64,000 nt of DNA from a virus. The DNA lies in the IMG/VR virus record IMGVR_UViG_3300013093_000001, positions 32,001 to 96,000 of that record; one strand, written 5' to 3'. The position numbers were made by a program, and so were the translations under genes. Positions 57,288-59,258 of this stretch are shown here, piece after piece. The notes under the pieces are model-generated. The model ran no database searches. It had not been told where the DNA came from and was given only the letters and a program-made list of their open reading frames with translations. Every line of letters begins with the position of its first letter. Positions within the stretch are counted from its first letter, which is position 1.

Positions 57288-57704
57288 CTACGACACCGCC
57301 TGTCGCATCAGGTCCGAGAACTCCATAAGGTGGCCGTACTTACGTTTCAGGTCACCGATTTCCCGCTGGAGCTCTTTCAACAGGATTTTCGTTAGGAACT
57401 CATCCTGTACTAGTTCCTCTGTCGGAATGTACCCAGTCCGTCTGTCGCCAGCTTCATGGAATGACTGGAAAGCCCTCACGTACCGACGCTCTCCAGACGG
57501 CGCATCGGGTATTTGAATGCGTACAGACCTCACCAACTCAGCAGCCTGTACCTTCCGGTAAGCCTCTCCCGCAACGGTGTCGTCCCATTCAAACCGATGG
57601 TGGAGGGGCGCGTCCAACGGACGCGCCTCCTCGACAACCAGTTCTGGCGTTAACTCACCGTGGTTACGGTAAATTGCCGTCAAAACATCACGCAGGTTTG
57701 ACAT
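57288..57704 (-). CDS. Conserved phage protein, partner of the RAMP-like gene
   Basis: LTPELVVEEAR...PLHHRFEWDD..A...YR..QA; start overlaps the stop of the RAMP-like gene. Confidence 0.75.
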   Translation of the reverse strand: MSNLRDVLTAIYRNHGELTPELVVEEARPLDAPLHHRFEWDDTVAGEAYRKVQAAELVRSVRIQIPDAPSGERRYVRAFQSFHEAGDRRTGYIPTEELVQDEFLTKILLKELQREIGDLKRKYGHLMEFSDLMRQAVS

Positions 57705-58366
57705 CAGCCTTCAATGCCAATCTCAACACTGCGGTCCACCTCGTACGTCCCGTACTCACCACGCTTTTCTGGCCGCCACTCACCGACCCCAATACCCATG
57801 CCGCCAGCGTCAATGAGAGACAGCACGCTGTTGCGGTCAATGGATGACTTGACGTAGGTCACCGTCAGTACCGTCGTCCATTCGGGGAACATTGGACGGT
57901 ATCGCAGGTCAGCCGACCGGGATGGACCGCCTAACCTGACCACGTCCTCACGCATCTCCGGTACACCCTTGATTTCGACCAACATTTGCGGGTCGGCCTT
58001 AGTCAAAACGCCGCGAAAAAACAGGAACTGCCGCAACGCCGTCATCGTGATGGACTTGTCGTAGAACCTGGCCGCGCTTGTCGTCGCCGCCTTAAACGCG
58101 GTGACAGGGAAGCCGTAAGCCTCTACCGGCTGGTCCGGTGTTCCCACGTTCGGCATGTCACTACGCAGGATGCGGTAAAAAGATGCCTCATACTCTGCTT
58201 TGGGGTCGCGGATTTCCTTGACCTTTTTCTTACCTTGCTGCGCCTCCAGCATCTGCCGCTTAGACTTCTCGCTAAAGTTGTGGACAATCAGCGGAGATGT
58301 ACCGATGATCGGTACATACAGCGTTTCTACGTCAATTCTGTCTAGCTTTACGTTATCTGTCGTCAC
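57704..58366 (-). CDS. Cas7/RAMP-like RNA-binding protein (putative Vipr-type effector)
   Basis: IIGTSPLIVH first strand, GFPVTAFKAA helix motif and C-terminal Gly-rich loop GIGVGEWRPEKRGEYGTYEV. Confidence 0.7.
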   Translation of the reverse strand: MTTDNVKLDRIDVETLYVPIIGTSPLIVHNFSEKSKRQMLEAQQGKKKVKEIRDPKAEYEASFYRILRSDMPNVGTPDQPVEAYGFPVTAFKAATTSAARFYDKSITMTALRQFLFFRGVLTKADPQMLVEIKGVPEMREDVVRLGGPSRSADLRYRPMFPEWTTVLTVTYVKSSIDRNSVLSLIDAGGMGIGVGEWRPEKRGEYGTYEVDRSVEIGIEG

Positions 58367-58375
58367 TACACTTAC

Positions 58376-58439
58376 CTCTCCTTATGGGTCAGCCCGTTGC
58401 CGACCTCGTACCCTGTCCAAGTTTGACCCTGACCAGGGC
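58376..58439 (-). repeat. Isolated copy of the double-hairpin element upstream of the RAMP-like gene
   Basis: GCCCTGGTCAGG-GTCAAA-CTTGGACAGGGT-ACGA-GGTCGGC-AACGG-GCTGACC followed by SD AAGGAGAGG. Confidence 0.75.
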
Positions 58440-58544
58440 TCGCGTGCCACGACGGGGTTCCTTATGCCACGCCTGCTGACCCGCATATATATATATACGG
58501 TAAATAAAACCGGCTTACTTCACCAGGCCAACTTGTCATGCCCA

Positions 58545-59152
58545 GCACTGCCTGCCGTGCTAAGCCCAGCCCAGCCGCACCAAACCCGACCTCGCCGTAC
58601 CGTACCTCGCCTGCCTCGCCGTGCCAGACCCGACCTCGCCATGCCAGACCTCACCGCGCCAAACCGTACCGCGCCCCGCCTGCCATGCCATGCCTTGCGA
58701 TGCCATGCCGTACCACGCCTCACCTTGCCTGCCTCGCTAGCCTCACCTTGCCTGCCTCGCCATACCATTCCTCGCCTCGCCTTGCCGCGCCTGCCTTGCC
58801 ACACCCTGCCTCGACACGCCAAGCAAAGCCCAGCCTCGCCTGCCATGACTTGCCTCAACGTGACATACCCGGCCTTGACCCGCCTGCCCTGCCTTGACTT
58901 GCCTCGACTTGCCTCAACCAGCCTCGACTGCCGCGCCACACCGCGCCAGACCGCGCCATCCACACCCAGCCGCTCCGTGCCTCGACTGCGTCGCCGCGCC
59001 ATGCCTGACCGGGACTGCCTCGCCATACCAGGCCGTGCCGTGCCATGCCAAACCGCGCCCTGCCCGGTCCCGCCATGCCTTGCCACGCCTTGACTGCCGT
59101 GACTTGACAAACCCCGCCGTGCCCAACCAAACCTGACCATGCCTGCCAGCCA
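58545..59152 (-). ncRNA. Segmented GGY-NN pentamer array (putative guide-RNA array)
   Basis: Over 100 pentamers with a near-constant GG(C/T) and a variable NN; 13 GGCAG(G/T)C-type delimiters give 12 segments of 23-79 nt. Confidence 0.75.
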
Positions 59153-59181
59153 GCTAGGTTGCCTTGTCGAACAATGCTCTG

Positions 59182-59223
59182 TATGGCAGTCCCGGCGACG
59201 GAGGTAGACACCGGGACCGCCAT
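59182..59223. terminator. Stem-loop between the DUF932 gene and the pentamer array
   Basis: TATGGCAGTCCCGG / CCGGGACCGCCATA inverted repeat. Confidence 0.45.
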
Positions 59224-59258
59224 ACCTTATTTTAGTTGTAGGTTGTACTGTTCACCAG

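What the first reader, a model, noticed from the sequence alone, without database searches (positions are those of the whole stretch)
58550..59147. The pentamer array is punctuated into 12 guide-sized units by 4-nt phase-shift delimiters
Seen: plus-strand GCCTGCC/GACTGC(C/G) delimiters start at 58550, 58609, 58678, 58727, 58750, 58789, 58838, 58882, 58926, 58984, 59013, 59092 and 59141. The spacings are 59, 69, 49, 23, 39, 49, 44, 44, 58, 29, 79 and 49; ten of twelve equal 5n+4. The NN strings differ between units, so this is not a slippage microsatellite. Inference: delimiters mark processing or filament-capping points, analogous to CRISPR repeats, and each unit is one guide.
Basis: partly seen in the sequence, partly recalled or inferred. 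Interest (0 to 1): 0.88.

Follow-up and report, generated by a model that had tools for sequence, protein, structure and literature searches.

The report
Staggered VIPR guide-RNA array in phage
The pentamer array is the guide-RNA array of a phage VIPR system, a CRISPR-like RNA-guided silencing system first described in 2026, and its 4-nt "phase shifts" are conserved GGC-A-GGY junctions that cut the array into guide-sized units; this is a new example of a known kind.

Summary

On the minus strand the array (59147-58532) reads (GGYNN)n. At each junction the two-base NN is replaced by a single A (GGC-A-GGY).

The gene just downstream (57704-58366, minus strand) is a Vipr RAMP protein. It is followed by a conserved winged-helix-like accessory gene. 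This is a VIPR locus (Doudna lab preprints, 2026), and the array appears to be of the "staggered array" kind that they drew in a supplementary figure but did not test.

Across 62 related arrays:
- The junction spacer is A in 92% of 626 junctions.
- The triplet before the junction is GGC in 98%.
- Unit length peaks at 8-13 repeats.

Close relatives among mycobacteriophages differ by whole units.

In relatives, four junction-bounded units match rival vipr genes under the published one-base-skip rule, and the matches stop at the junction. One rival guide matches this phage's own vipr at 18 of 20 positions.

Not shown: RNA ends, and any target for this window's own guides. All pattern scans for targets were negative.

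The same stretch was noted by other first readers of this scan. Verdict: a new member of a known kind.

The parts
59144..59147 (-). Leading junction GGC-A that opens the array
   Evidence: Minus-strand reading of the GCCTGCC at 59141-59147. Related arrays also begin with a GGC-A junction.
59095..59143 (-). Unit U1: 9 GGYNN repeats plus GGC-A (49 nt)
   Evidence: Viterbi parse.
59016..59094 (-). Unit U2: 15 repeats plus GGC-A (79 nt). Read as codon positions 1-2, its NN string gives [KN]V[KN][IM]GR[SR]A[FL][IM]TTL[IM][DE].
   Evidence: The decoding is by inspection, and no target was found.
58987..59015 (-). Unit U3: 5 repeats (29 nt), shorter than the family norm
58929..58986 (-). Unit U4: 5 + 5 repeats with an internal irregular slip where a Y is missing (58 nt)
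58885..58928 (-). Unit U5: 8 repeats (44 nt)
58841..58884 (-). Unit U6: 8 repeats (44 nt)
58792..58840 (-). Unit U7: 9 repeats (49 nt)
58753..58791 (-). Unit U8: 7 repeats (39 nt)
58730..58752 (-). Unit U9: 23-nt remnant made by a perfect tandem duplication of the 5' part of U10
   Evidence: TRF reports period 23 with 100% matches at 58717-58760. Parse.
58681..58729 (-). Unit U10: 9 repeats (49 nt)
58612..58680 (-). Unit U11: 13 repeats (69 nt)
   Evidence: No target was found.
58553..58611 (-). Unit U12: 11 repeats (59 nt)
   Evidence: No target was found.
58532..58552 (-). Trailing degenerate remnant of 4 repeats after the last junction
   Evidence: Cluster F arrays also end in a short conserved trailing segment.
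58510..58526 (-). Weak terminator-like hairpin with a U-run directly after the array, followed by an (AT)n run and a structured leader that extends to the vipr start
   Evidence: Consensus scan. The fold of 58367-58535 has z = -3.0.
57704..58366 (-). vipr gene: a 220-aa stand-alone Cas7-like RAMP protein
   Evidence: Member of phrog_4652. Matches the PDB chain 36pp_D, SUSP1 Vipr, at E = 3e-4 alone and 4.8e-6 as a profile. The AF2 model's top Foldseek hits are Csm3/Cas7.
57288..57704 (-). vap-like accessory gene of 138 aa: a winged-helix-like N-terminal domain plus a long C-terminal helix
   Evidence: A homologue is adjacent to vipr in 83 of 91 loci. It is 60% identical to Gordonia phage Pipp gp44 and 35% to Saal gp52.
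57798..57826 (+). Site inside vipr (antisense strand) that matches the first guide of a rival phage's array (locus L046) at 18 of 20 NN positions
   Evidence: It is the only site with 17 or more of 20 matches in the 64-kb window.
59181..59225 (-). Strong 17-bp hairpin between the upstream DUF932 gene and the array
   Evidence: The fold has z = -3.45 and no shuffle folds as well.

Best explanation
The region is the guide-RNA array of a VIPR (Viral Interference Programmable Repeat) system carried by a 113.9-kb phage, probably of an actinobacterium.

Proposed mechanism:
- The minus strand is transcribed into (GGYNN)n RNA.
- The adjacent Vipr RAMP protein polymerises on the RNA, one protomer per pentamer. 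It buries each GGY and presents the NN bases, which read double-stranded DNA as (NNx)n and silence a competing mobile element.
This shifts the pentamer register by one base, so a Vipr filament growing on one unit cannot continue into the next.
- The junctions therefore divide one transcript into 12 units of 3-15 repeats. About 9 of them have the family's normal guide length. Each unit is a separate guide, and no 3' tail or ribozyme lies between units.

Shown here: the anatomy; that the neighbouring protein is a Vipr homologue; the conserved three-part locus; the conserved junction grammar and unit length in relatives; whole-unit gain and loss between relatives; and, in relatives, target matches that end at the junction.

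Inferred: transcription of the array, filament capping at the junction, cleavage into separate RNAs, and what this phage's own guides target.
For: - Anatomy. The parse gives (GGYnn)n with 13 GGC-A-G(G/T)C junctions on the same strand as the neighbouring genes.
- Vipr identity. The protein hits solved SUSP1 Vipr at E = 4.8e-6 as a profile. Its YRP and GVGEWRP motifs align to SUSP1 R138 and D177-W178-R179, the residues that paper 10.64898/2026.04.26.720927 shows binding G1/G2/Y3. These positions are invariant in 25 homologues. The model resembles Csm3/Cas7.
- Linkage. 78 of 80 viral loci and 66 of 68 genomic loci that encode a homologue carry a sense-strand pentamer array beside it, and 83 of 91 loci carry the vap-like gene. 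The gene order varies, which argues for functional linkage rather than inherited synteny.
- Junction grammar. Of 626 junctions, 92% have an A spacer and 98% have GGC before it. Among 564 units the median length is 10 repeats, peaked at 8-13.
- Modularity. Phage Saal has a 59-nt unit that ByChance lacks exactly from junction to junction. Donkeykong has two extra units (59 + 54 nt) compared with Brocalys.
- Function in the clade. Junction-bounded units give 29 hits with two or fewer mismatches in other phages' vipr genes, against 0.5 expected (maximum 5) in 40 shuffles of NN order. The skip base falls on the codon wobble position. Identity is 0.90 within the guide and 0.20-0.38 for the neighbouring unit's NN bases.
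- No self-targeting in the phage's own genome. No Cas1, CRISPR or Rfam hit.
Against:
- No target was found for any of the window's guides. Exact (NNx)n scans of viral and metagenome contigs gave nothing, and neither did a 3-mismatch scan of 401 Microbacteriaceae genomes.
- The cross-targeting evidence rests on only four distinct guides, all from relatives.
- Units U3 and U9 are too short to be guides, and U4 has an internal slip.
- One sense frame is open across the whole array (206 aa), which happens in only 3% of NN shuffles.
- I could not see the preprint's Fig. S18. Equating its "1-nt overlapping" staggered arrays with these junctions is my reading of the legend.
Confidence: 0.8

Rival explanations
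1. The junctions delimit guides only physically. The array stays one long RNA carrying a string of separate Vipr filaments, each ended by the register break, and no nuclease cleaves at the junctions.
For: No nuclease, ribozyme or structured handle lies between units. The locus encodes only Vipr and a winged-helix-like protein. The published staggered arrays were not confirmed by RNA sequencing (paper 10.64898/2026.04.26.720920).
Against: The legend of the preprint's Fig. S18 speaks of individual processed vrRNAs. Arrays reach about 2.9 kb in relatives, which seems unwieldy as a single particle. Nothing tested here separates this reading from cleavage.
Confidence: 0.15
2. The one-base phase shifts are neutral scars of replication slippage or deletion in a long repeat, with no role in defining guides.
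For: Two irregular slips of another kind do occur in the array. About a quarter of all slips in relatives are irregular.
Against: The spacer is A in 92% of junctions and the preceding triplet is GGC in 98%, compared with 56% GGC among this array's ordinary repeats. Unit length is peaked at 8-13 rather than geometrically distributed. Indels between relatives remove whole units. Target matches stop at the junctions.
Confidence: 0.03
3. The region encodes a 206-aa Arg/Gly/Trp-rich protein (ORF 58520-59140, minus strand).
For: The frame is open over the whole array, which happens in 3% of NN shuffles. GenBank annotators called ORFs over the homologous arrays, for example UmaThurman gp40 and Donkeykong gp48.
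Against: - The period is 5, not 3.
- Close relatives differ by 5-nt, 59-nt and 113-nt indels, which would shift any frame.
- 29 of 51 related arrays of 300 nt or more are interrupted in every sense frame.
- Long open frames are expected from the composition alone, with a shuffle median of 150 aa.
- The ORF has no Pfam or PHROG match.
- Annotators' ORF calls over these arrays disagree between near-identical phages.
Confidence: 0.02

Closest known systems
VIPR systems, "staggered vrRNA arrays" (bioRxiv 10.64898/2026.04.26.720920, Fig. S18)
   Same: A stand-alone Vipr RAMP sits next to a sense-strand GGY/NN pentamer array, with a small accessory gene and no cas genes, in a phage. Adjacent guides abut with a one-base register offset, so the end of one guide marks the start of the next.
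   Different: The preprint gives only a schematic for this architecture and says it was not among those confirmed by RNA sequencing. The features worked out here are not in its text: the junction grammar (GGC-A-GGY), the unit-length distribution, whole-unit turnover, and the presence in Mycobacterium and Gordonia phages and in actinobacterial, firmicute and alphaproteobacterial prophages. I could not assign the locus to one of types I-VII.
Type II VIPR of Escherichia phage SUSP1 and the P. fulva prophage (experimentally characterised; PDB 36pp)
   Same: The pentamer code is the same, the RNA-binding residues are conserved (YRP and G-loop D/E-W-R), and the one-base-skip target rule operates with the skip base at the codon wobble position. 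Anti-vipr guides occur in rivals.
   Different: In SUSP1 each vrRNA is a separate transcript of about 100 nt, with 9-16 repeats capped by an invariant 3' pseudoknot tail. Here there is no tail: 12 units follow each other without a gap and are separated only by a one-base junction. Protein similarity is confined to about 55 C-terminal residues.
Class 1 CRISPR arrays with Cas7 backbone filaments (type I Cascade, type III Csm/Cmr)
   Same: The protein has the Cas7-like RAMP fold. It polymerises along a guide with a fixed step, and one array encodes many guides.
   Different: The step is 5 nt rather than 6 nt. The guide is read non-contiguously. There is no repeat hairpin, Cas6, Cas1/2 or other cas gene. 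The delimiter is a single base, not a 25-40-nt repeat.

Membership tests
VIPR system | A Vipr protein: a small stand-alone RAMP with an RRM core, a glycine-rich loop and a thumb | tested here: met
   It matches SUSP1 Vipr (36pp_D) at E = 3e-4, or 4.8e-6 as a profile. The AF2 model has pLDDT 77.6, and its top Foldseek hits are Csm3/Cas7 at E of about 1e-5. The G-loop motif GxGxGVGEWRP is invariant.
VIPR system | The GGY-binding residues of Vipr are conserved (SUSP1 R138, D177, W178, R179) | tested here: met
   The HMMER alignment pairs window R157 with R138 and E196-W197-R198 with D177-W178-R179. D is replaced by E, a conservative change. H17 and K33 could not be aligned by sequence.
VIPR system | Tandem GGY/NN pentamer repeats next to vipr on the same strand | tested here: met
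   111 regular pentamers lie on the minus strand, 165 nt upstream of the vipr start.
VIPR system | A minimal locus with a vap accessory gene and no cas genes or CRISPR array | tested here: met
   A 138-aa gene overlaps the vipr stop and is conserved in 83 of 91 loci. No Cas1 is present in the genome and the window has no Rfam CRISPR hit. Homology to a named vap1-6 could not be tested.
VIPR system | Guides recognise DNA by the one-base-skip (NNx)n rule | tested here: inconclusive
   The rule holds for the clade: 29 hits in vipr genes against 0.5 expected. No target was found for any guide of this window.
VIPR system | vrRNAs are expressed and co-purify with Vipr | not testable with these tools
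Type II VIPR (SUSP1-like) | An invariant structured 3' tail (pseudoknot) after each repeat tract | tested here: not met
   Units follow each other with only a single A between them. There is no room for a tail.
Staggered vrRNA array (Fig. S18 of the preprint) | Adjacent vrRNAs are offset by one base, so the end of one marks the start of the next | tested here: met
   Every regular junction is a -1 register shift. Matching this to the figure rests on its legend only.
CRISPR-Cas class 1 | A repeat-spacer array with cas1/cas2 and multi-subunit effector genes | tested here: not met
   No Cas1, no CRISPR repeat family, and only one RAMP gene in the locus.

The most novel reading that the evidence does not exclude
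The one-base GGC-A-GGY junction is a complete punctuation mark in itself. By breaking the 5-nt register it ends Vipr polymerisation and so measures out guides. In this large, cross-phylum VIPR clade it would replace the 3' tail, ribozyme or Cas6-type handle used by other RNA-guided systems. Arrays in this clade also often open with an anti-vipr guide, so these phages would be fighting VIPR against VIPR, with this phage's own vipr (57798-57826) as a predicted target.
Probability: 0.5. Interest if true: 0.65.

Novelty: new member of a known kind. Interest (0 to 1): 0.5.

Why it matters
VIPR was reported only in 2026, and its staggered arrays have not been tested experimentally.

This locus and its roughly 150 relatives show that the tail-less, junction-punctuated architecture is widespread. 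It occurs in actinobacterial, firmicute, alphaproteobacterial and bacteroidete proviruses.

It is also present in cultured SEA-PHAGES phages of Mycobacterium smegmatis (Saal, Donkeykong, DRBy19 and others) and of Gordonia terrae (UmaThurman, Pipp, ODay, Ecliptus). In those GenBank records the arrays are mis-annotated as hypothetical proteins or as N-terminal extensions of vipr.

These phages are tractable systems for asking how guides are measured out without a handle. The junction grammar also gives a simple rule for calling guides, and hence predicting targets, in such arrays.

Tried and rejected
Target hunts for the window's guides. All were negative:
- Exact (NNx)n scans of viral contigs for U11, U2, U12, U2 NN2-11, U2 NN6-15 and U11 NN1-10.
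- Exact scans of metagenome contigs for U11 and U12.
- U11 with up to 3 mismatches in five proviruses.
- U2 with up to 3 mismatches in five host genomes and in 401 genomes of the family of Microbacterium lacus.
- A scored scan against all fetched loci.
- The conserved cluster F guide (Saal U2) also had no exact hit in viral contigs.

These scans were exact or nearly exact. The preprint used 80% or more NN identity, so absence here is weak evidence.

Other negative or unavailable results:
- Rfam gave no hit in the region or in the window.
- Pfam, NCBIfam and PADLOC do not know either protein.
- The vap-like fold had no Foldseek hit at E of 0.001 or better. VIA-align gives only middling winged-helix matches, Z 5-6.4.
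No RNA evidence and no closer metagenomic neighbours could be obtained.
- The host could not be named. The closest cultured relatives of Vipr are in Microbacterium (72-74% identity).
- The VIPR type (I-VII) could not be assigned, because the preprint's tree and tables are not held as text.

Readings considered and rejected: a coding ORF, slippage scars, a DNA-level element (origin or G-quadruplex), and a rut-like C-rich antisense RNA. The last two do not explain the strict co-orientation and linkage with a RAMP gene.

Full report
**Observation**

The regex G[AC]CTGC[CG] finds 13 sites on the + strand at exactly the claimed starts. The spacings are 59, 69, 49, 23, 39, 49, 44, 44, 58, 29, 79 and 49. 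Ten are 4 mod 5 and two are 3 mod 5.

Identity at lag 5 is 0.55, against about 0.21-0.29 at other short lags apart from lag 4 (0.33). The + strand is 47% C. The array is the only one in the window and in the 113.9-kb virus genome, which has direct terminal repeats.

The flanking genes lie on the minus strand. On that strand the array reads (GGYNN)n from 59143 to 58532. A Viterbi parse shows that each delimiter is GGC-A-G(G/T)C, meaning a single A stands where two NN bases should be. The two odd spacings each contain one further irregular one-base slip.

The 13 junctions bound 12 units of 9, 15, 5, 10, 8, 8, 9, 7, about 3, 9, 13 and 11 repeats, followed by a 4-repeat trailing remnant. The 23-nt unit is a fresh perfect duplication.

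**What it is**

The gene immediately downstream (57704-58366, minus strand, 220 aa) has no Pfam family and belongs to phrog_4652, which has no known function.

- It hits one solved structure, SUSP1 Vipr protein (36pp_D), at E = 3e-4 alone and 4.8e-6 as a 25-sequence profile.
- The aligned stretch pairs the window's YRP and GVGEWRP motifs with SUSP1 R138 and D177-W178-R179. Those are the residues that bioRxiv 10.64898/2026.04.26.720927 shows holding the GGY bases. They are invariant in the homologues.
- An AlphaFold model (pLDDT 77.6) finds Csm3/Cas7 RAMPs as its best matches.

The preprint 10.64898/2026.04.26.720920 describes VIPR systems. A roughly 20-kDa Vipr RAMP polymerises on vrRNAs made of 9-16 GGY/NN pentamers, and the NN bases read double-stranded DNA with a one-base skip, (NNx)n, to silence competing phages and satellites. 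The window's locus fits this description. The genome has no Cas1, and the window has no CRISPR or other Rfam hit.

**Conserved three-part locus**

The same kind of array sits beside a phrog_4652 gene in cultured phages:
- Gordonia phages UmaThurman, Pipp, Ecliptus and ODay.
- 17 cluster F Mycobacterium phages, such as Saal, Donkeykong and DRBy19.

Scans with the Vipr alignment gave 80 viral and 68 genomic loci. Of these, 78 and 66 respectively carry a sense-strand pentamer array next to the gene.

The 138-aa gene that overlaps the vipr stop (57288-57704) has a homologue beside vipr in 83 of 91 loci. Its model (pLDDT 89) has a winged-helix-like N-terminal domain and a long C-terminal helix. The structural matches are only middling, Z 5-6.4.

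The order of the three parts varies: vipr-vap-array, vipr-array-vap, or array-vipr-vap as here. That argues for functional linkage.

**Are the junctions guide boundaries?**

Four results say yes.

1. Grammar. In 62 good arrays with 626 junctions, the spacer is A in 92%. The preceding triplet is GGC in 98%. The following triplet is GGC, GGT or GTC in 97%.
2. Length. The 564 units between junctions have a median of 10 repeats and a sharp peak at 8-13. This matches the 9-16 repeats of experimentally defined vrRNAs and is unlike the distribution random slippage would give.
3. Turnover. Nearly identical cluster F arrays differ by whole units. Saal's 59-nt third unit is missing in ByChance exactly from junction to junction. 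Donkeykong has two extra units (59 + 54 nt) relative to Brocalys. DRBy19 differs from Saal by one pentamer.
4. Function.
   - I scanned every junction-bounded unit of 9 or more repeats against all fetched loci as (NNx)n. This gave 29 hits with two or fewer mismatches inside other phages' vipr genes, against 0.5 expected (maximum 5) in 40 shuffles of NN order. Outside vipr and vap there was 1 hit against 3.1 expected.
   - The hits come from four guides. Three of those are the first unit after the vipr stop codon. They lie on conserved Vipr motifs with the skip base at the codon wobble position.
   - Identity is 0.90 inside the guide but 0.20-0.38 for the adjacent unit's NN bases at any offset, so pairing stops at the junction.
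   - Each guide matches its own phage's vipr less well than the best foreign one.

The legend of the preprint's Fig. [quoted passage not shown] The main text says this architecture was not among those confirmed by RNA sequencing. I read the GGC-A-GGY junction as that architecture, but I could not see the figure.

**How it most likely works**

In the solved filament, two adjacent protomers share each GGY, and the step is one protomer per 5 nt. A 4-nt step puts the next GGY one base out of register, so a filament cannot continue across a junction. Each unit, [GGYNN]n followed by a closing GGC, would therefore carry its own filament and act as one guide, with the A as linker.

This is inference. 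Whether the RNA is also cut at the A, and by what, is unknown. A weak terminator-like hairpin follows the array, and a strong hairpin precedes it.

**What is not shown**

No RNA data could be obtained. None of the window's guides has a self-target in its own genome. None found a target elsewhere in exact or near-exact scans, and none is shared with about 780 units from relatives.

Conversely, the first guide of a rival array (locus L046) matches this phage's vipr at 57798-57826 in 18 of 20 positions. That is the only such site in the window.

**Rival readings**

- Coding. A 206-aa ORF spans the array, and a fully open frame arises in only 3% of NN shuffles. But long open frames are the compositional norm, with a shuffle median of 150 aa. 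In addition, 29 of 51 related arrays are broken in every frame, and relatives differ by indels of 5, 59 and 113 nt. I reject the coding reading.
- Slippage scars. This is rejected by the junction grammar, the length peak and whole-unit turnover.
- A long uncleaved RNA carrying a string of filaments. This remains a live variant of the main explanation.

**Verdict**

The element is a new member of a kind published in 2026, not a new kind. Other first readers of this scan noted the same stretch independently.

Its value lies in three things: the junction grammar; the wide spread of the tail-less architecture; and tractable Mycobacterium and Gordonia phages in which the arrays are currently mis-annotated as genes.

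Noticed in passing
window 57798-57826 (+), inside vipr: The first guide of a rival phage's array (locus L046, IMG/VR contig 3300037760_000080) matches this site at 18 of 20 NN positions under the (NNx)n rule. It is the only site with 17 or more matches in the 64-kb window. The same guide hits 20 other vipr genes at the VLSL(L/I)DAGG motif and matches its own vipr at only 16 of 20.
   Followed up: partly
L002 2954-3340, L001 2954-3277, L005 1127-1291, L006 1133-1291, L011 1132-1296, L008 2411-2680; also L004, L006 and L007 from 1333: GenBank records of SEA-PHAGES phages annotate ORFs over the vrRNA arrays (Donkeykong gp48, UmaThurman gp40, DRBy19 gp51, ByChance gp39, Gorge gp53, Pipp gp43). Others extend the vipr start about 147 nt into the array (Saal gp51, ByChance gp40, Brocalys gp45). 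The calls disagree between near-identical phages and are probably not genes.
   Followed up: partly
L030 3659-6594, L041 3636-6463, L037 3740-6387, L029 4276-6528: Some relatives carry pentamer arrays of 2.2 to at least 2.9 kb, with 380-506 pentamers and roughly 40-60 regular junctions. That is far larger than any vrRNA array described in the preprint text. L030's array runs off the end of the fetched locus.
   Followed up: no
window 59181-59225 (-): A 17-bp perfect-stem hairpin lies between the DUF932 gene stop and the array (region z = -3.45). It has no U-run after it, so it is not a canonical terminator.
   Followed up: partly
window 58367-58535 (-): The 165-nt spacer between the array and vipr contains a weak terminator-like hairpin with a U-run (58526-58510), an (AT)6-7 run and a multi-branched fold closed by GGGUCAGC...GCUGACCC (z = -3.0). 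It may separate guide transcription from vipr expression.
   Followed up: partly
window 58717-58760: A perfect 23-nt tandem duplication spans a junction. It created the 23-nt unit U9 as a copy of the 5' part of U10. This is one visible way that units arise.
   Followed up: yes
L011 1333-2550 (Mycobacterium phage Gorge gp54): One annotated CDS spans both vipr and the vap-like gene, and tblastn matched vipr there in two pieces. This suggests a frameshift or sequencing error in that record rather than a true fusion.
   Followed up: no
L004-L007, L011, L012, array 3' ends (about 1320-1342): All cluster F arrays end with the same short segment after the last junction (GGAat GGCgg GGCtt GGCtg GGC), just before the vipr start. 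This window's array also ends in a degenerate 4-repeat segment. Its role is unknown.
   Followed up: no
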